Assembly: GCA_039621445.1 (NCBI GenBank) | Contig: CP154954.1 | Span: 22,270,954 to 22,334,953, forward strand | Origin: Euglena gracilis | Lineage: Eukaryota | Reading direction: 5' to 3' | Length of the DNA stretch: 64,000 nucleotides | In this document: piece after piece, positions 1 through 46,600 of the stretch | Numbering within the stretch: position 1 is the first letter of the stretch | Layout: every line of letters begins with the position of its first letter | Notes under the pieces: model-generated | The model's input: the letters and a program-made list of their open reading frames with translations, nothing else | What the model was told of the DNA's origin: nothing | Databases searched by the model: none | Made by a program: the position numbers and the translations under genes

Positions 1-1708
1 CACCGCAGCGCACCCCTGGCCTCCGGCTGCAGCACCACCACCTGAGCGACGTTGTGCTGGATCTGTGCCCCACAGTCGTACGGCAGATTGACGCAGCCGA
101 CGTGCCGGATGGGGTCCCGCATCTGGCCCATCCCACTGCCACACCGCACCATTCCCCTCCGGGAGGGGGGGGGATGGGGTTGTTTCGAGAGAGTCGGGGG
201 GGGGGGGCAATGGGGTGCTCCCCTCGGCAGTGGGATGCTCCGGACGTCCATCGTGATGCTCTGCCGCCGCCCACGGGCCAGGCTGGCCGCCTCTACCATT
301 TTCGAGAAACGGAGCGACGCTTCCTTCCCTGGGTGACCCATACTGCACTTGGGTGTTCAGGCGCTGAGGCAGGAAACCCCAGAAGCGTCCATGCCCCCCC
401 CCCACCATGGTAATGCGCAAAGAAAAATTCATTCACGAACTTTCGACCTAAAAATCGGCGCCGTGGAAAACCCGGGAAGGTATGGTGGGCGGGGGGGGGG
501 ACCCCCAACCACAATCGGGGTGGGGGAGTGTCACCGCCCGGTGGGCTTGCGGGATCCCCGTTCCGCCCTGGACGGCGTTGGGGGGGGGGGGCGTCCCAGA
601 CTCTTCCCCTTAAGGGGGGGGCAACGAGAGGATGGAGCCAGTGAGCCGGGTGAGAGGGGCTGGGGAACCCCAGACAAAACGCGGGACGGGGAAATGGGGG
701 CAGAAAAGGCGTTAGGCCCATTGGGGGCAGCAAACCGCCCGGCAGGGGGGAAGGAGGGTGGCCGCGGCCGATGGGCGCGTGGGGAGCGATAGGCAGGACG
801 GACATGGGGAGGAGGAAGCTCTGCCGGCCGGCCTCCTCCAGCAGGGCGCAGGTGAAGGTGACGTCCAGGGCGGTGGTGGTGCTGGGCTCGAGGTCAGCGC
901 CAGGGGGCCTCAAAGGCAGGCGGGGACCGTGGCGGACAGGAGGGTGGGCGGCCGACGCGTGTGGAGGCGGCTCTCGGAGGCGGAGGCAGACGGAACACGC
1001 GAAGGGACGCACGCTGTGCACCGCTTCAGAGCACAGCACGACGCGGAATGACGGAGACGCATGAGCACCGAGGCGGTGCTGAAGCAAAAAGAAATCCCGT
1101 CCCAGCACATTCGATGAAATCTCCACAAGAAAACGGGCGAAAAAAATGGCCATATTTTGGCGAAACAATGGGTCGACCTTGGGGGGGGGGAGCAATTTTT
1201 GGAATTCCTGGAGCATCACCCACCTGAAAAAATGGCAAAAAAAAAACCCCGTGTTTTCGACATTTCGGACGTCTGGGCGTCAAAGCCGTTCGATGCCTGA
1301 CGCCTGGACCCCCGTTGGCCGCCTTGGGCCTAAGGGCGGTCCTCAAGGGGCGGTCCTTGAGAATAAAAACTTCACCGCCCTGAAGAGCACCACCCACCCA
1401 CACACCCACACACACCCACACCCACCCACACCCACCCACACACACCCACCCACACCCACCCACACACCCACACACACCCACACCCACCCACACACACCCA
1501 CCCACCCACACACACCCACACACCCACACACACCCACACCCACACACCCACACACCCACACCCACCCACACACACCCACCCACACCCACCCACACACCCA
1601 CACACACCCACACCCACCCACACACACCCACCCACCCACACACACCCACACACACACCCACCCCCACCCCCCCACCCACACCCACACCCACACCCACCCC
1701 CCCACACC

Positions 1709-1747
<39 letters not shown>

Positions 1748-1770
1748 ACCCACCCACACACACCCACACA

Positions 1771-8426: not shown

Positions 8427-8812
8427 CCCCCCCCCTATGTCCAATGACCAGTAACCTCTGTCCTCTGACCGGGGGGGTGGTCGTTGGACATAGGGTAATG
8501 ACCAAAAAGGTGTCCTCTGACCGGGGGGGGGGGGGGGGTGGTCGTTGGACATGGGGTCAAAAGAAAGTTGGTGGGTGCCCGGGTCCCCACCCACCCAAAA
8601 ATGCCCAAATTTTCCCTTCTGGCGCTTTTGGGCGATTTTGACAATTTTTTGTCCAAAAAGTGTCAAAAATGGCAATTTGGCCAAATTTTTGGCCAAATTT
8701 TGGGCAAAATTTTTCGACCAAAAATTTGGTCAAACCTCCGAAAAGGTGTCCTCTGACCGGGGGGGGGGGTGGTCATTAGACATAGGGGGTCGTTGGACAT
8801 AGGGGGGGGGGG
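8427..8812. mobile_element. MITE with TA TSD
   Basis: TA-CCCCCCCCCTATGTCCAA ... TTGGACATAGGGGGGGGG-TA, with internal repeats TCCTCTGACCGGGG..GTGGTC.TT.GACAT. Confidence 0.8.
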
Positions 8813-13800: not shown

Positions 13801-16800
13801 TTTTTCCGGCCAAAAAATCGATTTTTCCAAGATATCTCGACAATGAAGCAAAATCAAAGGAAATCTCCGGAGAGCAAAAACGAAGTCCTTGGAATGCCCT
13901 AAACCATGGTTTACTTTCCCCCCAACTCTTCGTGTAGCCTGAGTTACCGCCGTATTTCGGCCAATTTTGGCCCATTTCAGGGCCATTTTGGGGCTGCTTT
14001 CGGGGTCAAAAATCGACGTTTCCAAAATATCTCGGAAATGAAGCAAAATCAAAGGAAATGTCCGGAGACCTAATTTGAAGGCCTTGGAACGCCCTATCTA
14101 ACAGTATTTTGATTTCCCCACAACTCCCCGCCTAGCCCGAGTTACGGCCATTTTTTCGGCCAATTTTAACCTTTTTTTACAGTTTCGGCCTGTTTTGACT
14201 TTGACTGTTTCGGCCACTTTGGGGTCAAAAAAGTCGGACAAGAAATCGAATTCTTTTTTGCCCGAAACGATGATTTTTGTCCTCGCGGACCCGGAAAAAC
14301 TGTTTTTGAGCCGAAAAAGAGCGTTTTTTGACCCACCAGCGCCCTGTTTTTGGCCCGAAACCCATGGGTTTCGGGTCAAAAACGGGCCAAAAAAATCGAA
14401 AAAAATCAAAAAAAAATCTGCCCGAAATGATGGTTTTTGGCCTCCCGGCCCCGGAAAAAAATTTGGGGCCGAAAAGGAGCGTTTTTCGATCCTCCAGCGC
14501 CCCGTTGTTGGCCCGAAACCTATGGAGTTTGGGTCATTTCCGGGTCAAAAAAGTCGAAAAAAATCCAGGAAAAGGGTTATCGAGGGTATGGGGGGCTCTG
14601 TGAGCTCTCAACATTTCAAAAATAACTGCAAAATTACTGAAAATTACCGTAAATTGCAGGTGTGTTATTTGTTGATATCACATTGCGTGAAATTTGTAAT
14701 GCTAGTTTTTTGGCCATCCGTTACTTGCAAGCCCCATTAAGAGCTCAGCACTATTCAAAACCTGGTTTATAAGTGGGAGGGTGGGGTTTACAGAACATGG
14801 CACCAAGAGGCATCGTTTCCCCCCCAAAAATGTGGGGGTCCTATCATCGTTGAGCCAGACAGTCGACCTCCCTCCACTTCAGCGGGGCTGGAACGGATGG
14901 CACACCGGGGGCCGAGGCAGAGCGGCGCTGCTTCTTCCCCTGAGCGCCGGGTGGCGCGAGGCCGTGGGTCACCTGGGGGCAGGGCTGATTGTGGACGTCC
15001 CTCCTAAGAACTGTAAAAGATGGGTAAGGACCGGGGAGGGGTGCTCAGACAGGGGAGGAATCCCCGACATTTTTTCTCTTTCGCACCGAAAAAGAAAAAA
15101 AAACTTCATTTTGGGGCTTTATTCTTGCCCATCTTTTCAAAAGGTTCCGAAGTCAAACTATTCTCTGAATTTCTTTGCAAAAAATCTTCAAAGTTTTGGA
15201 TTTTGCAGAATTTTCAAAAGATTGATTGGGTGAGTTACTGTAGATTTTCTGCATCTCAATGCCTTTACTTTGGAGAATCTGGGGGCTGGTGCCCAGACAC
15301 CGTGCTTTGGCAGAGGGGAGGGGAGGTGATAGAAAATGAAAGGCCTCTCCAAGACCTCACCCCCGCAATCCTGCATGGGGTGAGCCGGGACGTCCCAGCT
15401 CAGTTACCTCTCACGCACAGCCCTGCGCGGTAGTTCGGGTTGCCGGGCTGCATACTGCGGGGCTCTGCCTTCTTCACATCCACCCGCTGCCCCAGCACCT
15501 GTCGCCGGGCCGCCAATGAAAATGGGCAAGCGAGACGGGGCCCTTCAATGCTGCGCATCTCCAACTCCATTTTTTTTGTGTTCCGGTTTGAAAACGAAAA
15601 CCATTGCTTGGATCGCTCCGCACCACATTCTCCAGAATTTGCATTTTGGGCTCCAATTGGTTTGCTTGTTGACACATTATGTGCAGGTGCCCGATGCATC
15701 AATTGTGTGGCACGATGCACAGGGCTGCTTGGCTGGGAGGGGGCGAAACCAAATGGGATGGAAAGCGAACGGCGTTCTCCGCGTGGTCCTCCGACTCGAA
15801 GACAACAAACCCGCAGCCCTTCGGCCTTTTCGTGACTTTGTCGTACACAATCTCGCAGTCCACGATCTGGAGCACGGCAGTCAGGGGGGAAAGGGCAACA
15901 CAAAGAGGGGATCACCAATGGATGATTGGCGATTGAATTTCAACTCAACGTCTGTTCCGATTTCAGACTTCCCTGGTCCTCTTGCTGCTAATTGAAGTTA
16001 GAGGACATTTCATTCCCTGCGACAATGGTATTTGCTGTATAATCCATCTATCCATCCATACATTTCGACACTTACATCTGGATAGCTCTCATCAGATACA
16101 ATTATTGCCTTGGTTGAAATATAAATGGAGGGTTAATTTGAGGACAGGGCCGGTCAAAGTTCCTCTGGGGGGGGTCTTTTTTTTATGAGCACTTTGATTG
16201 TGCAGTTTAGATCCCACCTACTGATAAAGATAGGGTACATGTCTTTTCAATTTGGGGGAGAGTACGTTACGTTCTTCAAATATTTCTGATGGAGTCTTCA
16301 AAGCAGCCATCGATCTAATACTCCCCACGAACGGCGGACAACCAGGAGGAGGGTGAGCAACGAGGATTGCACACATAGACGATGCGATCGGCCCGCAAAG
16401 CGGCGTCGACAGGGGTGGCCGAGTCCCCAACGGGGATCGCGCGTTGCGCCGGAGCGAACTGTCACGCCAAAGCCGCCACCGCCGTGTGCACGACGCCCCA
16501 CAGGGCCTCCAGGTAGGCCGGGTGAATGGCGGCCACCCCGGCCTGCCACACCCCCTCCCAGTCCTCCGCCAGGGAATCGTGCAGTGACCTTCCGGGGGGG
16601 GGGGGGTTGGGGGCCATACCACTGCTTACCAACCCCTGGGCAGGGGAAGGGGGAGGTCACTTTCTACTTCCAAAAAAAACCAGTCAGTTCATTTGAAAAT
16701 CCAGTCAATCACCCACTTCCACCCCCCCCCCCGGGGGTATCGGTCACTTTAGCCACTCGGGCCAAAATGGTTTAAAACCAATGGATTTTGGCCAAAAAAA

Positions 16801-17330
16801 GCACAAAAACCTCCGGTGCCTTTGCCGCCGGGTGGCACTTTTGGCCATTCCTGGGGGGGGGGGGTCCGGAGCCAAAAAAAAAACAGACAGTCACTCAAAA
16901 AAACAACCAGTCAGTCACCCCCAGGGGTCGGCCACACCTTGCGCAACGTGTAATGTGGTTGGGGTCCAGCTCACAGGCTGGAACAAGGCAGCTTGGCTGG
17001 CTGGACCCCTCCCCCCCGGGGAGGGATGGGGGTCCACTGAGGCTTGAGCGATGCCCTGTCCTCCGCCACCCGCTGCCGTACCTCCTCCCGGACTGCCAGT
17101 ACGCCGTCCACACCAGCCACCGGGGCTCCTGTGGGGCAGACCGTCCTCCGATGGCAGCACATGTTGAGTGTGGCACAAGAGACCGGCAGATGAGGAAAGA
17201 AGAACAGACAGGGGAAGGGGCGTAGGCAGAGGGACCCCGAGTGAGGCGGTCCAGGCACTGGGCAGCGCTTGCCACGCCCAAAGCTGAATGGAAATGATGG
17301 AGGGGGCCTTCACAAGGATTGCATGTGTGA

Positions 17331-17367
<37 letters not shown>

Positions 17368-17776
17368 GGTGGGTGGGTGGGTGGCTGGCTGGCTGGGTGG
17401 CTGGGTGGGTGGGTGTGTGTGTGTGTGTGTGTGTGTATGCGGGTGTATGCATGTGTGTGTGCGTGGGTGGGTGAGTGGGTGGGTGAGCGCGTGCATGCGT
17501 GTGGGTGGGTGGTGGGTGTGTGGGTGGGTGGGTGTGCATGTGTGTGTGTGTGTGTGGGTGGGTGGGGTTGTGGGTGGGTGGTGTGGGTGTGGGTGTGTGT
17601 GTGGGTGGGTGTGTGTGGGTGTGGTGGTGGGTGTGTATGGGTGTATGCATGTGTGTGTGTGTGTGTGTGGTGTGTGGTGGGTGGGTGGGTGGGTGGGTGG
17701 GTGGGTGGGTGGGTGGGTGGGTGCGCGAGTGTGCGGTTGCGCGCGCGCGCGTGTGTGTGTGCGTAGGTGGGGGGGT

Positions 17777-17809
<33 letters not shown>

Positions 17810-29800: not shown

Positions 29801-32800
29801 GTCCCCGTGTTCGTGTGGGGGCGCCCGGGGCGCGTCGCCGCGGCGGTCGCCACGATCCAGGGCCGCGTCGAGGAGCGGGCGCGGCGGGACATCGACGTGT
29901 GGGTCCGGGAGACCACGGTGCGGCAGATCGGCGCGAGCCGCAGCGCGCTGGCGAAGCGGCAGCTGACCATCCTCCACGCCGGCGGGGTGGACCTCACGAG
30001 GGTGTGATTCCCTGTCCCAGCATTGTCGAAGATCTTAAAAATCCCCGGGCGCACCTGCGCCCGGGGATTTTTTTTGCGTTCCCCCGCTTCCGGAGCAAGT
30101 GGCGCGCACCTGCGCGCGACACCCCACCCCTGTCCTCACACTTCACTGGGCTTGGGTGTTTTGTGTAGTGGCATTGGCATTGGCATTGGCATGGGGCGTC
30201 CGGAGGGTGGCTTGCCCCCCGGCGCACCTGCGCCTGCGCCCCCGCCTCCACTCGTAGGTCGCGCCGGTCGTGATGTGGGACGAGGTCACCTCCTCCGCCG
30301 ACTTCGACGTGCTGCACTGGTACGTGCTGAGGTGGGCCGCCCAGAGGGTCGTCCGCGACTTCGCCCCGGAGGACTTCGTGTTCGTGCAGAGCGCTGCTGA
30401 GGACGCGGAGTTGGTGGGCCACTGCCTGGCCTGGGGCAAGCGGCCCCTGAACATGGTGGTGGCGGTGGACGGGGAGGCGGTGGACATGGAGGCGGTGGCC
30501 CACAAGGCGGCGGACGCGGGGGCGGACCAGTGCCCGGTGGAGGAGGAGCTCTTCGAGGACATGGAGCAGTTCCTGGAGAAGGGCCTCAGCCTGGAGCTGG
30601 TGCGGACCGTCCCCGAGATCCAGCGGAAGCTGGAGTGGGAGAAGGCGAAGGAGGACGCCCGCAAGCTGGAGCGGGTGAACCGGGAGGAGAACAAGAAGCG
30701 CCGGGAGCGAGACCGCAAGGCCAAGGCGCGGGCGGCGAAGCAGAAGGCGAAGGAGAAGGACGACCGACGGGCCGCCCGGGAGGCGACGGCGAAGGACCGC
30801 CCTGCGGGCGCCAAGCCCAAGGCGAAGAAGAAGCCGGGCAAGCCCAAGGCTGCGGGCGCACCTGCGCCCCGCCCCCAGGCCAAGGGGAAGGAGGTGAAGC
30901 GCCGCACCGCGCCGCGAGCACCGCCGGTCGCGGTCAGCAGCACCGAGGACTCCAGCAGCAGCAGCAGCGGGGAGGGGGAGGAGTCCAGCAGCCTGGCGGA
31001 GGAGGTGGAGGTGGAGGAGAGCCCCCCGAGGCGCGAGGGTGGTGACCGTGGAGGCGGCGAGGGTGGTGACGCCGGCGGCGGTGGCGACGAGGGCGTCGGC
31101 TGGGGCGGCGAGGGCGAGGGCGAGGAGGAGGGCGGCGACGAAGGGGAGGGCGGCGGCGAAGGGGCGGAGGCCGCAGGCGAAGAGGGGGAAGAAGGCGGAG
31201 GGGAGGCGGAGACAGCCGAAGGCGAAGAAGCCGAGGAGGCGGCGGCGGGCGCACCTGCGCCTGAGGAGGCAGCACCCCCCGGTCCCCAGCAGCCCCCTGA
31301 AGCCCCCGCGGAAGAAGCCCCCGGTGGGAAGAGGCGGCGCCAGGTGGAGGAGTCGGGCGCAGCTGCGCACGAGGAGGCCAGTGAGGGGGAGGAGGACTAC
31401 AGCGTCACCAAGGTGGTCTTCGGCATCAGAGACTCCCCGCCGCCCCCGGACACCCCCCAGCCCCCGCGGAAGCAGCCCCGCAGCGCGGCCCCCAGCGCCA
31501 GCAGCCCCGCCGCCGGCTCCCCCGGCAAGCAGCCCCGCCCGCGGCCCCCCACCTCCGAGACCCCCTCCTCCAGTCCGTCCAGCGCAGCCGCGCCCGAGGC
31601 CACGACCCCCCACCAGCCGGAGCCCCCCTCCCCGCAGCGGCCGCGCGACCGGGTCGACCCCTTGGAGGAGGACAGTGCCCTGAACCCACCCCCTGCGGGC
31701 GGGGACTCCCCCCTCATCCCCTTCTCCTGCCCCCGTGACCCCCTCCCCGACCCTGGCTCCTCCTCTCCCCCGACCCCACCCTCCAAACACAGGGTGGTCC
31801 GCAAGGGCGACCCGGCGCCGTGAAGACGTGCGCACGCCCCGGCCCCCCGCCCCTCCGCCCCACCCCGCCCCTGCCGTCCCCAGAGGAGCTCTCCCAGTCC
31901 AGCCCCGAGGCCGCCCCCAAGCTGCCCCCCAAAGCCACCACCCCCTGGTCGAAGCCCGACCCCCGGCCCAAGCCCGCCAAGCCCCAGGGCCCCAAGCCCA
32001 GGGCCCCGCCGCTGCCCTCCCACCGCGCCCTGGCCACCCCCACGCCGGAGACCACCCCCCAGGCCGCCTACCTCAAGAAGCCCTGGAACCCACCCCGGAA
32101 GGCCCCCCCGCCGGCAGCCCCCGCGGCCCCGCCCCAGCCCGTGTGGTCCCTCCTCCCGCCGCCCCCAGCGACTCCCCCAGACGTCCCGCCCGCTGCAGCG
32201 CCCCAGCCCCCCAGCCCGACCCCGCCCCCCGGCGCCACCAGCCTCCTCCCGCCCCCGGCCAAGCCAAAGCCCGCGGCGGTCACCCCGGCGGCGGCAGCGC
32301 TGGCGCAGCGGCTGGCGAAGCCCCCGGCGAAGGACTACCCAGGGGCCGGGGTTTCCAGCCGCCTGAGGCGCCGGCAAACGGCTCCCCTTTTCCCTCGGTC
32401 GCACCTGCGCGCGACGGAATCCCCTCTCGTGTCCTTTGCGGGGGGCGGGGCCCCTCCTTCCAGTGGCAGAATGGTGCAGCCCCCTCTCGCACAGACGCGC
32501 GCACGTGCGCACGCACCCCACCCACCCGGTGCGGGCTAGGCCCTAGTACACGCAGGGTTGGGCTTGGGTGGCTGGTCGGGTGCTCACACACACCCCATCC
32601 CCCTTTGCCCCACCCCAAACACTGGCACAGGACGGCCCCTGCGGGTGACCTGCGCAGGTGCGCGCGCTGGCGCGGCGCGGCGTGGAGACCGGCCGGGGCG
32701 GCGAGGCGGCGCGGCGGCGAGGCGGCGCGGCGAGGCGGCGGCGCCCTCACCCCTGTGACACTTCCCCTCTACCCTCTGCACACATTCAACCGTGTCGGCC

Positions 32801-34666
32801 GGGACACTCGGGTGAAAGACCGTTCCCCCTCCCCCCCTCTCACCCGTGTCGTGGCCCCCCTCTCGTGGCAATGCACCCCCCTCTCGTGTCAGACCCTGGG
32901 GTGTCAGAGTGTCCCGGCCCGCCCTCATGCCTTCGGCAGCCCCTCCTTTCCCCCTGGACCTTCCCTCCCTCTCCCCGTGGACCCTGGACCCCTGCACCCC
33001 TGCACCCCTGCACCTCCCTTCACCTCCCTTCTCTTCTGTGGAATTGCAAAGCAAACGGGAGGGGGGTGGGGGTCAGTGCCCAGTAGGTGCGAGGCGCAAG
33101 GACAGGACGGGGTGGGCGGTCCTCGGTCGCAGGTGCGCACGACCCGGGGGCAGTGGGCCTGTGGTTTTTGGATGTCCCCCGGGTGGTGGGTGCCGGGCCT
33201 GTGGGCCCCAGCCGGCGGTGAGTTTTTTTTTATTTTCGGCCTCCGCCGGGGTTTCAACCCCCGGCAGGGGCAGACACCGGACAGGTTTCGAGGGGTCCAA
33301 AAAGTGTCCCGTTTCAGTGCCTTTTCGGGGTTTTTACCCCGGTCAGTAATTTTAGGTGGGACATAAAATAATTCAGGTTTTGACTTGTCGGGCTTACAAG
33401 CACGGTCACTCTCAAAATTGAGGACGCAAAATTGCCTTTGGTGTCCTCGTGCGCACCTGCGCCCAAATTGAAAAAAAACCCTTAAGTGTCTTTAAGGCCG
33501 TCTAAGTCTGATCTGGTGTTTGTGACTTTCGGCTACATCATGCGAAATTATACCCGCTTTCTGCTTCATTGGAATGTGTGTATGCTGAACAGGCCCAAAA
33601 GTACAAACAGGCGGATATTCGGCACCTTGGTACTGTGCTGTCCACATAGGATGTTGGGTTAGGGTTAAAATTAGGATAGCAACAATGGTACCTGAACAGT
33701 AGTACACTTAAAGATCATCAAACAACCTGGCACATAAAAATAAATCGAGCCAGCGGCCATTAACTACTGCCCCCCCCCAAGGGCCCTGTGGTTCACGGGG
33801 GGACCGGGACCCAAAATGGCCTGTGTTTTCCCGCTGCTAAAATAACGGAAAGCACTGCAAAAAAATGCCTTTAAAACCCCATCAGCTTGCGTTTAAGAAA
33901 GTGGACCTCCCCCCTCATTCAACTACCAGGCCCTCCCTTCAGGGGGGGGGGCAGTAGTTAAACTAGTGTGGAGCCCGACTTTGAACAAAGGAGGATGATG
34001 TCTATTTGTTTATATTTATTCATATATTCGTATGGATATATATAATATATTATATATGGCAGCAAGATTCTACTTGCCCCCCCCCCCCGGAGGGGCCAAG
34101 TATAATCTCCAGGGGGGCGGGGGTCCACGTAGCATCTCCTGCGTCCGATCTTCCGGAAACTTCGGGGTTGTTTCTTGGGATAGGGTTAGGGTTGCAACCA
34201 AACTCCCGGCGGGCTCCCTCTTTCGGGGAATTTAAGGAGAGTCAGGCCGCATTTCCGACGGTTTCCCACCGACTCGGGGAGACCGAATCGGGGTCGATTT
34301 TTGGTAAAATTACGACAAAAAAGGCGACCCAAAAATCTTCCAGAACGACGACCTAACTTCCGGCCTAACTTTGATACTAAAAAGTGCTTTTGGCGGCCAA
34401 TCCTAACCTTAACCCTATTCCTCCAATTAAGTGCTGAATCTCCCCGGATCCGACCGATTTTGCCCAGATCTGGTGCCGTTCCAGGGCCCCGCGGGACCGA
34501 AACGGCCCGAAGGTCGGACGCGGGAGATGCTACTTGGACCCCCCCCCCTGGAGATTATACTTGGCCCCCAGGGGGGGGGGGCAAGTAGAATCTTGCTGCC
34601 ATATATATGTGTATATGTATATGCCATATATATACACACACACATATATATTTATATGTATGTATG

Positions 34667-34711
<45 letters not shown>

Positions 34712-36225
34712 GGCAGCAAGATTCTACTTCATATATCCGGGGGGTCTGGGGAGCACCCCCGGAGAAGGCTGAAGGCCGCGTAAATCCAAAAATGATGTCA
34801 AAAAAATCAGCCCCAAAAAGTGATTTGCTGGAGGGGTAAAGTGTGAGGTGACTGCAGCACTGTGGGTGCAGTTGTGGGGTGGCTTTGGGGTGCAGTGCAA
34901 GGTACTGTGGGGGCTCCACTGTTGGGCATCCCTTGCCCAACTTGGCGTTGAGGGTGACCCCAATTCCACGGACACATGGCGGCCAAATGGCTGTTCCACA
35001 CCCAGACCCCAGACGGTCTTGCCACAAACGGGGGAAAACCCTGCCCGGCGCTATTCCCCGGCAAGTGGGCGGCCTCCTGCAGCAGGTGCCAGGACTTGAG
35101 GGCAGACCTTCCTTTTCGAACCGAGTTCCCCATCAAACAAGACTAACGCTGTCTTTGCTTTGGGCTGTGCCATCCTTCAAACCGCACAAAAGCTTCCTCA
35201 GTGGAAGAATTGCACTGCATGTGGTACAAGCCAAAAGTTCACAACGGAGACTGTCACCGCCATACACCATTAGAAAATAAAAAATAAAAAAATGGCGTGA
35301 TTTTGTCCACAGCCTATGTGTTTTCTGAGTGATTTTGCCAATGGGGATAAAATTAGCAAGTTGACCACGTGACCCTTCCCTGAAGATACCAACCTTGGCC
35401 AATCCCAAGGGGGATTTTATCCCTTCGGGTGCATCGTACATCCAAAAATTTTCATCTCTCCAAAACTGCCCAAATTTGAATCTTTGGGGAGATTCTGGGA
35501 CGACAACCAACGCGACCCAATTTGACATGACCTGTCTCTGTGTCAGCCGGTGCTACCTCGGATGCCGTCGGGTCCATCACCGGGCGGGGGAAGGGACGGC
35601 CTGCGCCGAGGGCCAGGCCGCGACGGCGCAGCGCGGCGCGCACACCCCGAGACGCTCCGCCAGCAGGCTTCTTTTTAAGACCCCGGGGGGGGGGGAGGGG
35701 GGGTCCCCCCCACCCACCCAGGGTGGCGCGGGACCCCCCCCCCCGGGGGGGGGGGGGGGGGGCGGGGACCCCCCCAAAATCGGGCCCGTTAAAGGCAATT
35801 TTCAAAAATTTTCGGCGCTTCGCGCCGAAAAGGTATACTCAGCGCCTCTGGCGTGGGACCCCCCCCCCCGGGGGGTCCGGCCCGGACCCACCCACCCCCC
35901 CCAGGGGTCAGGTGACTTAAAAAGAAGCCTGTCCGCCAGGCCCGCCGCGAAGGCCTCGGCGGCGATGGCTGAGGAGCTCTTCAGCACCCGGTCCAGGGCA
36001 CTGCGCTGGCTCGGCTTGCGCCGCCGCCCCCGCCGATGCAGTCAGCCAAAGGGCCCCCGCAAGATTGGAGCGTCTCACTCGTTGCAGAGGGCTGCTTCCA
36101 AAAGCATAGAGTTTTTGAAAGGGTACTGAGCGCGCCGGCGTGTTGCCAGCATGAGGAATGCTCCCCCTGTGCTCTCCCTCTTCCCTCCTCTCATTCTGAA
36201 TGCTGTGTGCATGTGCTGTGTGTGC

Positions 36226-36285
<60 letters not shown>

Positions 36286-39200
36286 GGCGGGCGGGCGGGC
36301 GGGCGTGCGTGCGTGCATGTGTGTGTGCGCGTGTGTGCGCGCGCGTGTGCGCGCGCGTGTGTGTGTGCGTGTGCGCACGCACACTGTCCTGGATTTGATT
36401 TGCACACTTGTTTTTTGGAGAGAAACTATTGCAGACGGGGTATTGCATCAACCTCATGCAGTGCAGTGGCTGTGGTCCTCAAAATGCAGAAAGAATACCC
36501 CGCCTGAGCTCCCGTCCTCCGCCTGCTCAATGGACCGGACTCCGCCACAGTCCGCCTGTGCCAGAGCTCGGCCGAAAACCAGTCAGAAATGGGGACCACT
36601 CACGAGATGCATTTCAGGGAACGTGATATCAACAGCAGAGGGGGTGTGAGAACCCCCCAGACGGCGGGCCATCCGGGCCCTGGGCAGCTCCACAAGGGAC
36701 AGTGGCGGGGTACGAAGGGGTTGGCGGGGGGCGGGCGGAGCCGAGATTGCAGCCGCGGGAGGCCGTGGGGGACCGGTGGGCGCGGACAACGCAGGAGGGG
36801 GAGGGGGAGGGGGAGGGGGCGGTGGTGGATGGGAGGCTGCCGGTGTGAGAATCCGGAAGAGGCCGGGTGGAGGAGGGGGCGGGGGCGGGGGCGGAGGTGG
36901 GGAGGAAGGTGGAGGCGTGGGCTTGGTACCTTTGGGAATGTGCAGGCGGGGGGGGGAGGCTTGGGAAGGGGAGCCTGTTGCATCGCCTCCACCACAGGGG
37001 AGGGGCAGACATGTCCGGGGCTTGAAAACGCAAACGTAAATGCAAACGCACGGTTGGTTGCATGGGGAGGGCTGCCGCATTGCTGTGGTGGCCAGCGGAG
37101 CTTGGCGAATCGGGACCACGCGGCGGGAGCCGCACCTTGTCGTCCGGGGCAGCACAGGCAATGGGGAGAGGGCCAGCCATTCGCTGGCCTGTGCCCGTTG
37201 CAAGTCTGAGCACTGCGCAGCTGAGAATCTGAGTGCGGGTGGCTGTTGGGCAATATTGGTCCCGGTGACCCCGATGGACACATCACCTTTTGCTGCTGGG
37301 TTGCCCCAGGGCTGAAAAACAGACCCACCACATCCTGGGCTGGCCGGGCACCACTTCCACCACGGGGCTCACGTCGATGCCCCAGCGCTCCTGCAGCGCC
37401 GCCCGCCACGCGCCGTGGGCGGCACTGAGGTCGCCTGCAAGTGTGGCGGGGAAGGGCCGGCCGCCCTCCAGTGCTTGGAGGCGGTGCAGGGCGAGCCCGA
37501 GGCTGTCGTTGGCATGGCTGCAGGCCCCGGCCAGAGGCGGTTGTTTGGGTCCCGCCCCCCATCCCTGGGGGGGGTCGGCATTACGAACTGGTTGAAATGT
37601 CTCCCTCCACTTCGTTTTGCAAAACATTCTCCTATTAAAACAACTTTTGATAAATTCACCGCACAGAACATTGGACAGCCAGGGCTGGATGTATTTTAAT
37701 ATGTTGGCAGCCCCGGGGGAATTCCAGCTGCCCCCAGTCAAACCAGTCAAACCAGCATCACAGGTGGTACGCTTCTGATACTGTCCCCAGCCCGGCGTTG
37801 AACAGTGTCTTCGCCCCCTCCCAGACCAGGGTCTGGTCGAGGCTCTGTAACGGGTAACGCCCACAGGGAATGCCGCGTCGCCAGCGCCAGGGCCTTGCAG
37901 GCGGTGCGTCCCTCCGGGGTGGCGGCGCTGGGCACCGCAGCGAGCAGGGCGGCGATGGCGCCAAGCCACCGCCCTACCCCCATCACCACTCTCTGGCGCA
38001 GGGGGGGGGGGAGGGGGCCTACAGCCTTAGGGACGGGGGGGGGGGAGGGCTGTGGGCGGCTAACCAGCTGCGCTGCAGACTGGTGGCGGGCCAGCAGGTC
38101 CCGGGCGGTGGGGCTGGCCGTGGTGTGGTGCCTGCCACCGGCTCACCTCCAACGGAGCTGACGCAACAACAGGAGGGGAGCATACGCTCATGGGACAGGA
38201 AGGCCCCTCGACATGTCCCAGCCAGGGCATGTGGGAAGGCTTGGCGAGGGGTCGACCCCCACCCACCACCCATAGGGTTGCCAGGATGCCCGTTCAGCCC
38301 TGGCCTCAGCCCTGCCCATCAGCGCAGCAATGTAGGAAAGGCAGACATTTCCCCCTCCCCCGACACTGTTTCCAGAAAAGTAATTGACAAGGTCCCTGTG
38401 AGGACAAATCAGGGAGTCCAGCGCATACAACTGATTACCAACCCCCAATGACCCCCAGAGGGAGGGGGGGTGGGGGGGGGCAGAGGCGGCGGCAGGGTGC
38501 GCGGCAGGGGTGGGAGGCGAGGGCCAAGTTGCCCACAGCGCGGCCCCGAACGCCTCGCAGTTCTCGCGGAGGGCGGCGTACTGCTCGTCCGTGGCGGGCT
38601 GCTCCCCGGGCAGCACCTTGTGGGAGGCGGCGGGGCGGAAATGGACCAGCGTCACGCGGGCGGCGGGGGCGGGGGCGGGCGGGAGGCGCTTCCAGAGCCA
38701 GCGATTCGCTTGGCGATTTCCCTCCGGGCGGCAGGTTTCCCAGGGCCCAGACTCACCTACCTACTTTTGAAACCCCACCCACCTGTACCCTCACCCTCAG
38801 GGGCAGGCACCTAGGGTCACTTGCTTTTTTCAGGCCGGTCGGGATGCACCTGGTCCCCACCCCAAGCCAAGAGGATGGGGTTCACGGGCATGCAGGGACT
38901 CTTTGGTCAGAATGCCACGAGGTCCCATAACACGTCTGAGGCCCATAGGCCAGTGTTCAGTGGGAGAGAACAAAATTCCATGCTTGATCAAGATAACATG
39001 ATTATGGCTTGCAAGTACCGAGGGTAGCCACGCTGTGAAATGCAAGGGGTTGACTCCATTAGCCCCCCAAGGACTTTGGCGAAATCGAAAAAAGAGAACA
39101 AAAAAAAGGTTCACAAATTGTGACAGGGGATGCATTGTAAATGTACGTATGCATGTATTCAGATAAACCATGTCGCCATAAAAATGCAAAACCCTTGCAG

Positions 39201-39991
39201 CCAACGCGGCCCCGGCGGCCAGAAGATGCGCCGCATGGAGCCCTCGGCGGCATGCACCCCCGCCACCCGGGTCAGTACGTCGCATCCAGGGCGGCGAGGA
39301 CCAGGTTTTCCGGCGCCCCCGACGCGGAGCATCCGCAACGCCACGGCGTATTCAATCGGGCTTCACAGTTCGCCCGACCCCTGACGGTCGATGCCACCAT
39401 CCCAGCGGGTGTGGCAATCCCCTGTGTCCCAAGGCAAGTCAATCCGAACCCCCAATGAGACGGGGTTGGCTGGCCATACCTGGTCCGACCCCCAGAGGGG
39501 CCACTTTCAAAAAAGTCAGTCCCTTTTCAAAAACCAGTCACCCACCTCCCCCACGGGGAGGGGGTCGATCACTTTGGCCACTCGGATGTCGGGTCGGCCT
39601 TGGCCATCTCCGAGCCTTGGCGCTGGGGCGCGAACCTGGCCACCCCCTTGGGTTAAGCCAAATGCAGTACCGGGGGGGGGGGTAGCCACGCTTAAGCAAG
39701 GGGTTGCTCCTGGGGCCCCCAAGGACTTGTGGCGAAACTCGAGAACAAAATTCATCACACCCCCCACCAAAAACCCCCCACCCCCCCCCCCCCCCCCCCC
39801 GGCCCCCCCCCCCCCCCCCCCCCACCACCCCCCCACCCCCCCCCCCCGCACCCACCACCCCAACACCCAAACCCCCCCCCCCCCCCCAAAAACCACACCC
39901 AAAAAAAAAAAACCCAGCCCCCCCCCAAAAAACCAGTCAAAACCAAAAAGCAAAAAATCAAAGAAAAAAAAAAAAACAAAAACACACACCC

Positions 39992-40023
<32 letters not shown>

Positions 40024-40533
40024 CCCTGGCCGCGGCAGGGAAGGCCGGGCAGACCACCCCCAGCTCCTGCAGCGAGTTGTCCACCAGCAGCACCCGGCCG
40101 ACCGCGCCGCCGCCGGCCAGCGCGCGCAGCACAGCGCACGGGCCGGTGTGGTATGGGGAGTCCCCGCTGTCCCCGCGAGGTGCGTTGTGGCGTTTGTTTG
40201 GAGCCATTTCCTGACCGAGCAATAATTTACGTGTTTTCTGTGAGTCAGAGTGCTCTCCATTGGGCGACAAGAAGCCAAATCCCCCCTTAAGTTGCACTAA
40301 GGCTTCTTGTCTGACTTCGCTGACTTCGCCTCTGGCCCAGTTGTGTGGTGAGTGTCCAGGGACCCCTTACACCAGTACTCTTTTGTTGCTCCCCCTGGCC
40401 AGGTGAGTAACTCTGGTGTTATTCCAGTGCTGTGGGGACATACACTCACCTTGTGTGGTTGGTGTGGTCCCCAGAAGCCAAATCCCCCTGACATTACACA
40501 ATCCACAAAACCCCCACCATCACCAGCGCTTTG

Positions 40534-40608
<75 letters not shown>

Positions 40609-43600
40609 GCCCTGGCCATCCAACTTTGAGGCATCCTCCAGGTGGATGCAGAGGGAAGAGGGCGGGAGGGCGTCCCGTTTCGTCGATATGCCAACGGCCC
40701 CATCCAGTGTGAAATGACGACTGTCGGGCAGCTGGAGCAGGGTTGTTCCTTTGGCCATTGGAAGGAGGGCCGGAGCGTACCACCCGCCCAAACACATGCA
40801 GCAACTCAGAAACAACCCTGATTGGAAGATGTGACTGCCCAGGGTCAGAGACAGGTCCTCGGTTCAAAAAGTACAGCCGGAGTCCGCTCATCAAATTAGA
40901 AGGCCACCGGTGAACAGAACACTGGACTACACTAAACTATGACAAAAAAGACAGCTCTCAGGATGGGAGGGGCTCTTCAGCACACGGAGGGGAGCGGGTG
41001 GGGGCCTGGGGGGAACGCCGAAATGCCGGCGGAAGGGACGGAGGCGCGGCACGTGGCGGTCGCTCTGCCGTATGAAAAGGTCCGTGACAGAGCCGGCGGT
41101 CAGCAGTAGGTGGTGGGTGGGGTCGGGGGTCAGGCTGGTTTTAAGACCACGGGACTCCGGGGGGGGGGGGGGGGGGGGGACCCGGCATTTCTAACAGTTT
41201 TCCTGCGCTTTGTGTCGAAACCCACCCACCCAACCACCCACCCCCTGGGTGGGGGGCTTTCCAAGGGAAAAAGGAGCCTGGGCGGGGAGGTTCCGGCACG
41301 CTGCGAGGAGGTCGGCCAGCCCCTGCTCGTCCACCAGGCCGCAGGCAAACACTCCTCTGGGGAAAGTCCCAGCGGCCAGAGGGCAACAACGCTGTTGTTG
41401 GCTAACCCACGGAGTCCGACAGTGTCGTGAACAACCTGTTCACAATTGTGCTGTAGTCCCCCCGGGGGGGGGGGGGGGGGCTGGGTTTGTATGGGAAGCC
41501 CTGGGGGTCCAAGCCCTCCCCCAACGAGGGGTGGGTCGGACCCCTTCCTACCTCAAAAAGGTGAGGGGCCGGGACAATTTTCGGTTCTGTGGACGGTCAA
41601 AAGGCTGGATACCAGCCAAAATCGTTGAAAGGTCCCTGGTTTTTCTTTAAGAAAAAACCCCAAAAAGCTCAGTTTTCGAATTCTTCGAAAAAATTTTATG
41701 TGGGAAACACCAAAAGATAAAAAACGTCGCATTTTAAGGTGCGCAGCACCGCAAAATTTTTCGCTATTTTTGGAACCTGAAAAGGGGGGGCTGGGAGTCC
41801 GGGCACCCTTCCGGGGGGGGGGGGGGCCGGGCCCCCCAACAACCCACCTATACCGGACACCGACAGGCTTCCCAGACATCCCTGCCTGGAGGGGGGTGTT
41901 CTTTGGCGGTGAGAAACAGCCTGAATGCGACCGCTGCACCACCCCACCGGGCAAAGATTTGCCTCAGGCGAGCCAGGGATGGAAGGGATGGAACGTGTGA
42001 TGCCTCACTGGACAGCGAACAACGCGCCGGTGCAAAGTGTGCCAGTGTGGTGTCCACCTTCCGCGTAAAACGTTGGAGGATTGCGCCCGGCGGGGCGGGT
42101 CGGACGGGGCCGGTGAACGTCATGCAACGGGAGCCAGGGGGCCTTTGGGCGCTGCGGGGCCCGGCGGTGGCGGTGGTGCACAGCAGCGTGTCGTCCACGT
42201 CCCACACGATGAGGGTGGCCCTGCCCATAGGCATTCCCTTCGTGAATACGCATTTCCTTGGGCCCAACCCCACCTTCTTTCAGGTGCCCACCCACGCACG
42301 ACCCCCCAGGGAGATCAATCCACCCACCCACCCATTCACCCACCAAAACCTAACCTCCCACCCCAGCCTAATAGAAGCATGGGTGCGCGGACCGCCGCCT
42401 CTGGCGGCGAGGGGGGGGGGGGTGCGCTGGTATTTGGACCCAAGCCGTGTGATTTTTGTTGGTTTCCTTCAGATATCTTATCATAAACGGGGGGTGCTGG
42501 ACCGCCACCTTCGTTGGGGGGAGGCGTTTTTATTTGGACCCTGCGCTTGTGGTGGCCCCGTGCTTCTCTTAGGGGGGGGGGTGCCAATTGCCCGAAACCC
42601 TTGAAAACACTTGTACCAGGCCAGACTGATCCCTCTCTGGGGGTTTAAGAGAATCTATGGCCCCATCGCAGAGGGGCAGCAGCTCCGTGTAGCGCTGGAT
42701 CAGGTGGGGGAAGCAGTGCCGGTGGCTGGCCATTTGCGTGGGGAGGAGGAAGGGGGTGGGGCTGAGGCACGAGGACACCGGGGAGTGGGAAAGAAAGGGG
42801 GGGGCCGCGCCACACCGAGCCAGGGACCGGGGGCAACGTTGCGGAGGACACCGGCATTGGGTTTCACCGCCCGGCCGACACACCACAACGCCAGGCTTTC
42901 CAGCCAGCAGCTCGTAGCTGGGCTACGGACCCCCCCCCCCGGGGGGTCGAACGGTAATAAAGTTTCACAGCCTACAGGCCGGTCGACTGGCACGTCTCCA
43001 GGCATGCACCACGCCCCTGAATGGCGAAGCCACCGGCGGAAGGCGGCGCACACCCGTCCAAACTGCTGGAAGTGCTCCCACAGGACCTCTGTGGTGGCGG
43101 TGGGCGGCAACGCCCCGATGAAGATCCGCCGCGTCCGCATCACCGTCGCCAGCTCCTCCTCTGCGGACCCGCAACGGGAGGGGCCCGGGAACGGAGGCAC
43201 TTCAACCATTTCCCGCCCAGAGGCTACAGCGCCCAGTCAGCCCCCTGGAGGGAACTCTGAGCTGACTGACGCTGAAGGTGGTGCGATGAGTTGCTTTGCC
43301 CAACTAAAGCGATGGGGGGGGGCCCACTTGCCGTCCCTGGCCGACGTTTGGCCTCGCTGCAGCTCATTCCCACGGAAGGGAACACAAATGCAAAAGCAGA
43401 AGCGTGACAGCCGTCCATCCAATAGGCAAGTTAACTCTCGGCTGTATGGAATGGAAAGATGGTTCTCGTTCTTCTTTTGAGCGTTTGGCTGGGGGCGGAG
43501 GACCAGTTGACCAGGCGAAGGCGAGGGGGGAGCGCGCAGAGGCTGGGGAATGAGGCGCACCAGGGACTGCACTCTTCACGTCGAGGGTGTTCCCCTGCAA

Positions 43601-46600
43601 TGTGTGGGCATGCACCATCGGCGACAAGAAACGGGCGTTGACGAGCGGCGTGCCACCCCGGGCTCTGTTTCATCCGTCCCAGGTGGGTCTTGGACTCTCC
43701 AGTCCCCCCCCATTCTGAGTAAACAACAAAAAATTCCCATTCATCATTTTTTCTGATCATTTCCACAAATTTTCGAGTGCTTGGAGCCAGGACTTTATTT
43801 AGACTCACACAAATAACACACTTCCCACCACTGAATCGAGACAAAAGATAAACCTGTTACACCGTTTGGAAACCTTTCAGAAGCATATGCTGCACCATTT
43901 GGTGGGGGATTTGACTCAAAGGGTTACGTGCAACTGGACGCGATAAAAACATCAGAAGTGTGTTTCATCCGTCCTCACAATCCAAAACCAGAAACAATTT
44001 TCTTCCACAGAAAACAACAAAAAACAGGTGCAGGGGTGCAAAGGAGAGGGGCAAAGAGCATTCCCGCCCCAAGTTCTGTGCCCACAAATACCAAAACAAA
44101 ATTGTCTCCTCCGGCGGAAGTTTTCCTTCAAAGCCTGTGCCACCCTGGGATCTGGGCGCGACCAGACGACGGCGCCTCGCAGCCGTTCCTGGGCAGTCCG
44201 TTGCGCACCGCCTCCTCCGGGCTGGTAAACGTCACGAAGCCAAAGCCCCGCGACTTGCCATCCTGGACGACGACGCGCGCCTGCTTCACCTGGGGGGGGG
44301 GGCAGGGCGGTGTGGCGGTGATGCACGCGTCTGCCTGGGGTGGGGGGTGGGGGGGGTGGCAACTTGCAGCCTTTTGGACTCAACCACTGGCTGTTGGCAA
44401 CAGGGTCATCGGTGAAGGCGTCCTTTGAAAAGCCAATGAGCATTACTGTTGGGCAATCTTGCACTGACCTCTTGTTAGTAGAAGGACCAAGAAGGCGACC
44501 GAATCCGTTGCCCAGCGAAATGCAGGAGACGGTGGAGAAAGAAGATAGCCAACTGGACCGCATTGGTTTGAAAATTTGGAGTGGTGGAGGGCCCATGCCC
44601 CTCCTTTCTTGACAAAAACCATGTGCCTGCGGCCTCGGCATGAGCACAGCCAGAGATAGAATAAAAAAAATGCAATCACCAACACACCTCACCGAAGCGC
44701 AAGAAATAGTCCCGGAGGTCCTCATTTGTGGTGGCTCTGTTCAGCCCGCCAACGAAATACATACCTGGCAGACGGCGGGAAAATGGATTCATAAAATTCC
44801 TGCTTCGGTTTGATCCATCCGCTCCCGAGCCAGCTCTAAAGGCTTGGACTGCGTTTGATTTCAGTGGAGCTGTTCGGCCCTCCCGCCACCTCGGAACAGA
44901 AAGCCCCCCCCTCCGTCACTTGGCCATGGGGTGTGGTCCAAACCCAGAGCCACCGGACTGCTGGCCGAACTTGGAGCGGGAACCCTCTGCCCGTGAGGCA
45001 CAAACCCCCGATACTGGGGTTGTGATGCACAGAAAGCCAACTTTGGGGCACTGAGGGCGACCCCAAAGAAGGGGGAGGCAGCGCGCGGCGGTGTGAAGAG
45101 GGGGGCCGACCGGTGACGTCCTGCGCCCGGCGGGGCTTCTGGCCCGGGAGGGGGAGCGGCGCCGGCGGCCCGAAGGCGGCCGCCGCGCTGTCCCAGTGCG
45201 TCGTCCCCAGGGCTGTACGGGGTGGCCTGGGGGGGGGGGCGACCAGGCTGTTTCTAACCCACCCGGGGGGGGAGGGGGGGTCCGGAGTGCCTGTGAGTGC
45301 CTGCCCAGGCAGACACCCCCCCCCCTGTGTGCACTGTGGCTGTTTTTTTTGGTGCCTTTTATCCCTTCTTCTGGCCCGGCGCTGTTGTTCGCCTCTGGCC
45401 CTTTTTGTCTGTGTACGTGGAGGTGGCCGGACCCCGGGGGGGGGGTCGGCACCCAACTAAAAAACAGCCTGGGGGCCACCCTCCAACCTGGAGGTGGGGG
45501 GTCGACCCCCCCCACCCACCACAACATTTTCACAGATTTTTTTTTACAAATCCACCCGGCGCCTTTGGCAGTGGGAAAAAAATTTGGGGTCGAAAATTGG
45601 TGCTCCCAGAAATACGGCATGAGGTGGTGGGGAGTGGTCGACCGCCCCCTCACCCACAATGCAGGAGGGGGGGGGGGTCGACCCCCCACCATACAATTTT
45701 TTACCGACCCCTCGAAAAACCAGTCAGTCACTTTTTTGGGAAACCAGTCAGTCACTACCCCCGGGGGGGGGGGGGTCGGCCACTCTGGAATCCAAAGGAA
45801 ATTTGACCAAAAACATGAAAAAAAGCCATTTTTTTCCGGTGCCTTCAGCGCCGGGTCACTTAAGTGGATTTTTGCTGAGCCCCCTGGGGGAGGGGGTCTG
45901 GGCCAAAAACCAGTCAGTCACTCTGAAACAACCAGTCAGCCACCCCCCCCCCCGGGGGGGTCAGCCAGTGACGAAGTGATTGACTGCCCCCCACCACCCT
46001 GGCTGTTTGGCCGCTTCCCGTACTGCCCTGGTCCTCGCCCCTGGGCTGGGACCGCCATAGGGGGGTGGGGGGCCGGCCATGAGAGCGGCAGGGAACGCCG
46101 CACCGGGCCGGCCCCCAGCGGGGGAGGGCGCCCAGTCCGGGCTGGGGGCAGGCCCCAGCAGGGGCGTGGCCTCCGGAGGGGGGGGGTCTCCGTGGGGTCT
46201 GGGGTGAGACCCCGTATTGCACCGGCATTGCACCCGCACTGCACCTGCACTGCACCCGCACTGCACCCGCACTGCACCCGCACTGCACCCGCACTGCACT
46301 AGAAGGTGTGCCAAATCGAGGCGGGGTGGCTGGGGAGTGTCGGGTGGCGGAACGCCCCCGAGACACAACTGCAGCCCTGTGCGGCGTGTGATTTGGACGC
46401 GCGAACACAGCAGAACTTGGGCGAATAATCTTGACATTAACGCGCAAAGAAGCTATCCATTTCTTCGGATGGGTCTGTGTCTTTCACGCAAGATTCATCA
46501 AACAAAAAATAGAAGGGGGAAACCACAGGTTTGTTTGACAGGTGGAGGCCATTTACTGCAGAAAAACCTCTGAAACGTTTTGGGGTTGTGTCTAGTGCAA

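What the first reader, a model, noticed from the sequence alone, without database searches (positions are those of the whole stretch)
124..46033. Nonconventional introns are hAT-type MITE insertions: the 3+5 nt splice offset equals an 8-bp TSD (introner system)
Seen: at least 14 interruptions of clear reading frames lack GT-AG and read exon|NNN-CAG...CTG-NNNNN|exon with paired ends. Three have a perfect 8-bp direct repeat around the paired core (35664-35931, 17279-18482, 16570-17058). Others decay through 7/8 (20698-35043), 6/8 (45208-46030) and 5/8 to unrecognisable. Removing 3 nt of the first copy, the element and 5 nt of the second copy deletes exactly one TSD and restores conserved kinase, RRM, HAD and VIT motifs. 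Known: euglenid nonconventional introns have CAG at +4..+6 and CTG at -8..-6, and hAT elements have CAG/TAG ends and 8-bp TSDs; a transposon origin of these introns has been suggested before. Inference: that consensus is a hAT terminus plus TSD, and the host machinery excises such insertions scarlessly. Many unrelated MITE families would then act as introners, and this window shows an age series.
Basis: partly seen in the sequence, partly recalled or inferred. Interest (0 to 1): 0.93.

Follow-up and report, generated by a model that had tools for sequence, protein, structure and literature searches.

The report
Transposon footprints explain euglenid intron ends
In this euglenid DNA, some unusual introns are recent transposon insertions whose 8-base target duplication equals the 3+5 bases that the cell's poorly understood splicing system removes, which offers a testable origin for these introns.

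Summary
The window is euglenid nuclear DNA. All five named CAG...CTG elements and their flanking 8-bp repeats (8, 8, 8, 7 and 6 of 8) are real. Among 20 nonconventional introns I called, register 8 stands out (4 of 20 at 7/8 or better, P about 2e-7). Five CAG elements outside exons show the same register (28 of 40). Two TSD-bearing introns are multicopy, with about 90 DNA contigs diverging exactly at their ends. The flank consensus of one family is GTnnnnAC, the shape of hobo and P targets. RNA-contig ends and an orthologue fit the published 3+5(6) splice code.

Limits: the other 15 introns are at chance (42 of 120), so there is no smooth age series. Four of the five lie in one weakly covered gene. 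Only one perfect case has RNA support, and it is indirect. hAT is likely but unproven, and P-type elements remain a rival.

A MITE origin, one 8-nt-repeat new intron and the 3/5 spacers are already published. I did not find the equation 3+5 = 8-bp TSD in my searches.

The parts
35659..35934 (-). Nonconventional intron A1: 268-bp element 35664-35931 with 14/14 TIR and perfect 8-bp TSD (35656-35663, 35932-35939); multicopy
   Evidence: 91 X14 contigs diverge before 35664; an X15 contig piece ends at 35655 as predicted
20693..35046 (-). Intron A3: core 20698-35043, flanks 7/8; composite, holds an 11.3-kb nested transposon
   Evidence: splicing not tested
17274..18485 (-). Intron A6: core 17279-18482, perfect 8-bp TSD, CAG...TTG ends paired by G-U, microsatellite interior
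   Evidence: splicing and copy number not tested
16565..17061 (-). Intron A7: core 16570-17058, perfect 8-bp TSD, TIR 11/14
   Evidence: splicing not tested
45203..46033 (-). Intron in the linker of the four-RRM gene: core 45208-46030, TIR 13/14, flanks 6/8; multicopy
   Evidence: loose ends pile up at 46030/46031 in X1, X14 and X15
45244..45471 (.). Non-exonic CAG element nested in the intron above, flanks 7/8
51096..51427 (.). Non-exonic CAG element, flanks 7/8; related sequence at 41528-41646
49970..51518 (.). Non-exonic CAG element, TIR 13/14, flanks 5/8, GT....AC-like site; related ends at 53532 and 56308
52089..52302 (.). Non-exonic element of the same end family as 45208; flanks 4/8 (6/7 at register 7)
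40246..40415 (.). Non-exonic CAGAG-ended element, flanks 5/8, related to 10454-10579
41125..41283 (-). Intron H3: 3+6 spacers, flanks 4/8 (6/9)
   Evidence: an X15 piece ends at 41123 as predicted for 3+6
40733..41011 (-). Two short nonconventional introns (40733-40823, 40847-41011) around a 23-nt micro-exon; flanks 4/8 and 3/8
   Evidence: X15 record 21 pieces end at 40732 and 41012 while DNA contigs run through; called after seeing the RNA; 24 letters lie between the pieces, one more than the model
38127..38498 (-). Intron H8 with inverted CTG...CAG ends, flanks 3/8
   Evidence: X15 piece begins at 38497 as predicted for 3+5
37516..37838 (-). Intron H10, flanks 1/8, interior at single-copy depth
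   Evidence: X15 piece ends at 37515
43620..44194 (-). Nonconventional intron in the RRM gene (CAG...TTG), flanks 2/8
   Evidence: orthologue P0001 aligns best when core plus 8 nt is removed, 151 against 140 or less; X15 record 23 runs through it unspliced
14975..15428 (-). Nonconventional intron in the RRM gene, flanks 4/8
   Evidence: orthologue score 126 for core plus 8 against 115 or less
35098..35606 (-). Intron A2, flanks 3/8 (one of the 15 introns without a recognisable TSD; others at 117-245, 896-2457, 3228-3867, 18647-19378, 19548-20525, 37212-37345, 41364-41939, some uncertain)
60579..61977 (+). Decayed hAT-like transposase after a TAGGG end: BED finger plus weak hAT dimerisation region; no right end or TSD found
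   Evidence: zf-BED E 1.2e-8; Dimer_Tnp_hAT E 0.091, below cut-off

Best explanation
New nonconventional introns in euglenids arise from cut-and-paste TIR transposons with CAG ends and an 8-bp target duplication, most likely non-autonomous hAT elements. Step 1 (shown for 5 introns and 5 non-exonic elements): the element inserts and duplicates 8 bp. Step 2 (published for Euglena, fitted here by RNA contig ends): the nonconventional machinery reads the stem closed by CAG/CTG and cuts 3 nt before and 5 nt after it. Step 3 (arithmetic): 3+5 removes exactly one copy of the duplication, so the exon is restored for any target sequence and in either orientation, because the ends are symmetric. Step 4 (inferred): only insertions with a purine at target position 6 of the sense strand are spliced well; all five here have G. 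Step 5 (inferred): the intronic halves of the duplication and the interior then drift while pairing is kept, leaving introns with no visible TSD. The shared pyrimidine|purine consensus at both junctions and the A and C at exon positions 2 and 3 would be relics of the duplicated GTnnnnAC-type target. Odds: 3+5 = TSD for young introns about 0.85; hAT rather than another 8-bp family about 0.65; most or all nonconventional introns arising this way about 0.55.
For: Register 8 alone carries perfect repeats among registers 6-12; P(4 or more of 20 at 7/8) = 1.6e-7. Blind scan: 4 of 205 strong CAG...CTG pairs reach 7/8 against 1 of 1159 control pairs. Five non-exonic elements give 28 of 40 at register 8 against 36-53% at other registers. 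Summed DNA depth in bins holding A1 and 45208 is 2.6e5-9.5e5 against about 50-240 in the low bins; 91 X14 contigs diverge exactly before 35664, and 99+92 X1 and 84+87 X14 contigs behind 46030/46031, into unlike flanks. The consensus of those 91 flanks ends in GTCCCAAC (agreement 0.34); hobo's target motif is GTNCGNAC (PMC3276498); 6 of 16 curated sites match 3 or 4 of the GT....AC positions, P 8e-5. X15 piece ends fit 3+5 or 3+6 at 7 junction sides, each end fitting only 10-14 of 99 spacer pairs. A strain-specific new intron in E. agilis gapC has 8-nt direct repeats and is absent from other strains; downstream exons have A at position 2 in 43 of 55 and C at position 3 in 30 of 55 (PMC4770533). 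Knock-in tests fix the spacers at 3 and 5-6 and require a purine after the intron (PMC12501133).
Against: 15 of 20 introns have no duplication above chance (42 of 120). Four of the five TSD-bearing introns sit in one weakly covered kinase-like gene. No RNA joint was displayed (1403 joints hidden by repeat copies); the A1 evidence is a piece end whose partner piece was not shown; X15 is only guessed to be RNA and also has contigs running unspliced through 43620-44194 and the A2 donor. Three of the 7 fitting ends (H4, H5, H11) were called using the RNA, and it also chose between 3+5 and 3+6 for H8. The hAT remnant has TAG, not CAG, ends and no TSD. A young CAG-ended 11.3-kb element (TIR 42/44) has only 4/8 flanks and a DUF6589-like protein. 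T at target position 2 is not common in the 20 introns (5 and 3 of 20), although a palindromic target predicts it. The 16 curated sites were chosen by eye, partly after I noticed the AC pattern; across all CAG sites there is no AC excess.
Confidence: 0.75

Rival explanations
1. Same model, but the elements belong to another 8-bp-TSD superfamily, chiefly P-like transposons, or to several superfamilies.
For: The P element has an 8-bp TSD and the target motif GTCCGGAC, 6 of 8 identical to the flank consensus seen here. No transposase was linked to a CAG-ended MITE. A CAG-ended non-hAT element lies in the window.
Against: A BED plus hAT-dimerisation remnant is present, and its family's TAGGG ends resemble the CAG element ends beyond the first three bases (4.5 and 3.3 of 9 against 2.3 and 2.2 for all CAG sites), though much of that is the shared GG. 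CAGGG/CAGAG ends resemble Ac and hobo ends (recalled).
Confidence: 0.25
2. Only a minority of nonconventional introns are transposon insertions. The splice code is older and independent, and CAG-ended 8-bp elements merely happen to fit it.
For: 15 of 20 introns show no TSD, and three of them (A2, H10, 43620-44194) lie in bins at single-copy depth. Scores are bimodal, not graded.
Against: Loss is expected once half of each copy is intronic. The TSD-less introns keep the same pyrimidine|purine pattern at both junctions (intron first base purine in 13 of 15, exon last base pyrimidine in 12 of 15), although knock-ins found no requirement for the last exon base. An exact 3+5 = 8 fit would be a coincidence.
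Confidence: 0.35
3. The TSD-bearing elements are plain insertions in a dead or barely expressed gene and are not spliced.
For: Four of five lie in one gene nested in another gene's intron, with low RNA depth; frame restoration is automatic for a perfect TSD; no displayed RNA joint.
Against: All five obey the knock-in code, including the purine; the frame continues without stops across the junctions of that gene; 45208-46030 lies in a conserved RRM gene whose frame matches the orthologue downstream; an X15 contig stops at 35655 instead of entering the element.
Confidence: 0.12
4. The direct repeats come from double-strand-break repair that captured foreign DNA, as proposed for the gapC intron.
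For: Proposed in PMC4770533.
Against: The repeat has one length, 8, in all perfect cases; the inserted DNA has terminal inverted repeats and ends at the same base in about 90 different flanks; flanks show a transposase-type target motif.
Confidence: 0.05

Closest known systems
Euglenid nonconventional introns (PMC3935182, PMC4770533, PMC12501133, PMC6221363)
   Same: No GT-AG, paired ends, CAG at +4..+6 and CTG at -8..-6, 5-6 nt 3' spacer, purine as first exon base; MITE origin already proposed; one new intron with an 8-nt repeat already reported.
   Different: In the parts I read, the 8-nt repeat was put down to break repair or called TSD-like; no TSD length, superfamily or link between spacer sum and TSD was given.
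Introners of Micromonas and other algae (review PMC11282704, passages)
   Same: Non-autonomous TIR elements with TSDs that become introns and leave one TSD copy in the mRNA.
   Different: Those carry or co-opt GT and AG for the spliceosome and, in Micromonas, have 3-nt TSDs. Here both signals are the TIR stem and the cuts fall at fixed distances outside it, so no target dinucleotide is needed and either orientation should work.
Noncanonical introners of Amoebophrya and Fritillaria (PMC7789003 and PMC11282704, passages)
   Same: Noncanonical ends, inverted repeats, direct repeats over the junctions.
   Different: Amoebophrya repeats are 3-5 nt and vary in length and position; Fritillaria introns are thought to use a modified spliceosome.
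hAT transposons (hobo, Hermes; maize Ds as a de novo intron)
   Same: 8-bp TSD, nTnnnnAn or GTNCGNAC target, short TIRs, BED-finger transposase. A Ds-made intron is cited in PMC3935182 (reference title only seen).
   Different: No transposase tied to the CAG families here; Ds splicing uses spliceosomal sites (recalled).
P-element superfamily
   Same: 8-bp TSD, GTCCGGAC target.
   Different: No P-type transposase found in the ORFs I scanned; ends look more like Ac/hobo (recalled).

Membership tests
Euglenid nonconventional intron | Host is a euglenid | tested here: met
   A top hit of an exon of the RRM gene is an Entosiphon sulcatum protein; species not determined
Euglenid nonconventional intron | No GT/GC-AG ends | tested here: met
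   0 of 20 have an equivalent within the slide window
Euglenid nonconventional intron | N3-CDG...CHG-N5/6 then purine, with paired ends | tested here: met
   Used as the calling rule apart from the purine; first exon base is a purine in 19 of 20; A1 folds with z -6.0
Euglenid nonconventional intron | Removed from RNA | tested here: inconclusive
   7 contig piece ends fit; both pieces shown only for record 21; joints hidden; X15 only guessed RNA
MITE / introner | Terminal inverted repeats, no coding capacity | tested here: met
   TIR 10-14 of 14 for the five named; A3 holds a nested coding element
MITE / introner | Multicopy family with common ends | tested here: met
   Met for 35664-35931 and 45208-46030; not tested with reads for A3, A6, A7
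MITE / introner | Empty site with one copy of the TSD | tested here: inconclusive
   The X15 piece ending at 35655 could be spliced RNA or an empty allele; a published case exists for gapC
hAT superfamily | 8-bp TSD | tested here: met
   shared with P elements
hAT superfamily | nTnnnnAn / GTnnnnAC target preference | tested here: inconclusive
   Flank consensus GTCCCAAC from 91 contigs and 6 of 16 curated sites; does not separate hAT from P; weak in the exonic cases
hAT superfamily | Autonomous partner with hAT transposase and the same TIR | tested here: inconclusive
   Only a decayed TAG-ended remnant; its catalytic fragment found no homologue; no genome held
P-element superfamily | THAP/P transposase partner | not testable with these tools
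   Whole genome not held

The most novel reading that the evidence does not exclude
The dominant intron class of Euglena is a domesticated answer to one transposon superfamily: the splice code (CAG/CTG stem, 3+5 spacers, pyrimidine|purine at both junctions, A and C at exon positions 2 and 3) is the fossil of a hAT terminus plus its 8-bp GTnnnnAC target, and the RNA machinery undoes such insertions without a scar in either orientation. The tolerated 3+6 spacing would also admit elements with 9-bp duplications.
Probability: 0.5. Interest if true: 0.92.

Novelty: new variant of a known kind. Interest (0 to 1): 0.78.

Why it matters
The origin of euglenid nonconventional introns is stated to be unclear, although they make up 71.8% of introns in E. 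agilis (PMC12501133). The model turns a general MITE suggestion into numbers that existing genomes and RNA data can test: a peak at register 8, a target motif, empty alleles and a transposase partner. It would explain the odd 3/5 spacing, part of the frequent short repeats at junctions and an unexplained exon consensus. It would also describe a splicing geometry that neutralises a whole transposon class in coding sequence.

Tried and rejected
No whole genome is held. No indexed holder was on record as RNA; that blank is no evidence. The single read-laying run covered 34950-47540 only, with 4 of 24 listed runs; its joint, loose-end and piece tables were truncated by repeat copies (15 joints, 24 loose ends and 24 piece rows shown), and raw-read run X21 gave no displayed host-exon joint. 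Homologue searches with a kinase-like exon, a HAD-like exon and the hAT catalytic fragment found nothing, so the kinase, HAD and VIT labels are recalled motifs: Pfam gave no significant hit on the exons tried and the Atlas gave kinase-clan leads at 0.84-0.85 only. An unrestricted inverted-repeat scan and clustering of all CAG ends (p 0.50) were too noisy. Metagenome scans for the A1 family end and for the RRM orthologue found nothing. Stem strength as a clock: TIR identity correlates with TSD score (rho 0.66, n 20; 0.48 and p 0.07 without the five named), but pairing is under selection, so I do not take it as an age series. Two papers were not held, so TIR consensus definitions of hAT and P are from recall; the search for them gave nothing relevant.
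Full report
Setting. The window is 58% G+C eukaryotic DNA; the host genes I modelled all lie on the minus strand. An exon search returned a 438-aa protein from a 1,461-nt contig (P0001) and an Entosiphon sulcatum protein, both with the same four-RRM layout. The host is therefore a euglenid; I did not determine the species.

Observation. The five named elements and their flanks are as described. To avoid choosing by the repeat, I enumerated in-frame junction candidates at 23 places under the published splice rule and ranked them by end pairing only. I kept 18: 14 top-ranked, A5 and H8 from ties or frame variants, H11 chosen to fit RNA, and one chosen from the orthologue. I dropped 5 as ambiguous or GT-AG compatible and added 2 from RNA contig ends. 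All five named elements came out top-ranked by pairing. Flank identity at register 8 is 79 of 160. Permuting flanks between introns never reached the observed mean in 20,000 trials; registers 7 and 9 were not raised, and register 5 was (p 0.003). The signal comes wholly from the five named introns. The other 15 give 42 of 120, which is chance. So there is a sharp 8-bp duplication in a quarter of the introns and nothing visible in the rest.

Are they transposons? A scan blind to genes found 4 of 205 strong CAG...CTG pairs with 7/8 or better, against 1 of 1159 for four control trinucleotides; two of the four are non-exonic. Five non-exonic elements give 28 of 40 at register 8. In two DNA runs laid on 34950-47540, bins with elements reach a summed depth of 1e5-1e6 (X1) against about 50-240 in low bins; this shows many copies but is not a copy number. 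Contigs diverge exactly at the proposed ends: 91 before 35664 in X14; 99 and 92 behind 46030 and 46031 in X1; 84 and 87 in X14; flank agreement is only 0.34-0.42. This fixes the element boundaries independently of the repeat. The consensus of the 91 flanks ends in GTCCCAAC, with its only T at position 2 of that 8-mer. I infer that the consensus abuts the place from the row at 45344, and flanks ending in G are excluded from that row. hobo (hAT) prefers GTNCGNAC and the P element GTCCGGAC, both with 8-bp TSDs (PMC3276498, passages); Hermes gives nTnnnnAn (PMC2803484, passages). Three TSD-less introns (A2, H10, 43620-44194) lie in low-depth bins, as expected if they are old, but H3 and H8 lie in raised bins.

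Are they spliced at 3+5? The joint table was swamped, but contig pieces of X15 (guessed RNA) end at 35655, 37345, 37515, 38497, 40732, 41012 and 41123. Each equals the leftmost joint predicted for 3+5 or 3+6, and each fits only 10-14 of 99 spacer pairs. DNA contigs run straight through 37515, 40732, 41012 and 41123. A1, H10 and H3 were called without the RNA. For A1 the piece stops just before the first TSD copy, which fits loss of the element plus one copy, by splicing or as an empty allele; the partner piece was not displayed. Against: X15 also has contigs that cross 43620-44194 and the A2 donor unspliced, and record 21 has 24 letters where my micro-exon has 23. Late removal of nonconventional introns is published (PMC6221363, passages), but DNA in the run would look the same. 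The orthologue aligns best when core plus 8 nt is removed at two RRM-gene introns. A3, A6 and A7 lay outside the stretch laid.

Which superfamily? A decayed element at 60579-61977 has a BED finger (E 1.2e-8) and a weak hAT dimerisation match (E 0.091). It starts with TAGGG; no right end or TSD was found. Its family's ends resemble the CAG ends modestly. A young CAG-ended 11.3-kb element with a DUF6589-like protein has no 8-bp TSD, so CAG ends alone do not make a hAT. I file the elements as 8-bp-TSD TIR transposons, probably hAT.

Mechanism. Insertion duplicates 8 bp. The machinery cuts 3 nt upstream of the CAG and 5 nt downstream of the CTG and needs a purine next (PMC12501133, first three of six parts and passages read). 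The sum is one TSD, so the exon is restored in either orientation. All five TSD-bearing introns have G at target position 6. The model also predicts the same bases at both junctions. PMC4770533 (section 8 part 1 and passages) reports pyrimidine|purine at both junctions and A (43 of 55) and C (30 of 55) at downstream exon positions 2 and 3, which are positions 7 and 8 of a GTnnnnAC target. That link is my inference; the matching G,T at positions 1 and 2 is not clearly raised in this small set. Whether the machinery evolved to fit the TSD, or a pre-existing geometry filtered for 8-bp elements, cannot be told. The enzymes are unknown.

What is in print. A MITE origin was proposed in PMC3935182 (passages) and repeated in PMC12501133; a review calls the junction repeats TSD-like (PMC11282704, passages). 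PMC4770533 reports a strain-specific intron with eight-nucleotide direct repeats and reads it as break repair. PMC12501133 notes that 84.4% of introns are slidable and sets those aside; the terms TSD and hAT do not occur in its main text. PMC11170887, PMC12621601 and PMC7789003 (passages) add no 8-bp link. Searches found no paper equating the spacers with an 8-bp TSD or naming hAT. The library lacks most subscription papers, and I saw no supplements or figures; Table S3 of PMC4770533, the supplement of PMC12501133 and the sequence logos could bear on both the claim and its novelty.

Verdict. The core idea holds for young introns and gains independent support from non-exonic copies, contig ends and the literature. 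The age series, the hAT label and the extension to all nonconventional introns remain open. New variant of a known kind; interest 0.78.

Noticed in passing
window about 15870-43050 (minus strand): The fourth RRM of the RRM gene is split by about 27 kb (orthologue residues 303-340 at 43161-43048, 338-378 at 15869-15747). The gap holds a HAD-like and a kinase-like reading frame on the same strand. Every intron I could call firmly there is nonconventional, while most introns of the host gene look GT-AG by eye. Nested young gene, or a scaffolding artefact.
   Followed up: partly
window 22231-33515: 11.3-kb element with 42/44 terminal inverted repeats starting CAG, G+C-rich ORFs, DUF6589-like by Atlas features (0.91); flanks 4/8, or a perfect 5-mer if the ends are 22240/33506. 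Superfamily unknown.
   Followed up: partly
window 52668-53543 (+) and 55314-56300 (-): Two Tc1/mariner-type transposase copies (HTH_Tnp_Tc3_2 E 1e-12, DDE_3 E 8e-8); the first is interrupted by a CAG element at 53532, the second by a TAGGG-ended element ending at 56083.
   Followed up: partly
window 58277-59665 (-): 463-aa frame that looks like a non-LTR retrotransposon protein by recalled motifs; no Pfam hit.
   Followed up: no
window 60766-60837 (+) and 60901-60974 (-): ARAGORN calls tRNA-Val and tRNA-Ile inside the hAT-like element, upstream of the BED finger; further tRNA-like repeats at 62274-62512 by eye.
   Followed up: no
window 40824-40846 (-): Predicted 23-nt micro-exon between two short nonconventional introns; the RNA contig has 24 letters there.
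   Followed up: partly
window about 8420-8815 and 12618-13020: TIR elements with other ends that appear TA-flanked by eye; they lie outside the exons I modelled.
   Followed up: no
window 38132-38495, 18652-19375, 123-242: Intron ends that depart from CAG...CTG: inverted CTG...CAG, and CGG...CAG with a mismatch at the middle base.
   Followed up: partly
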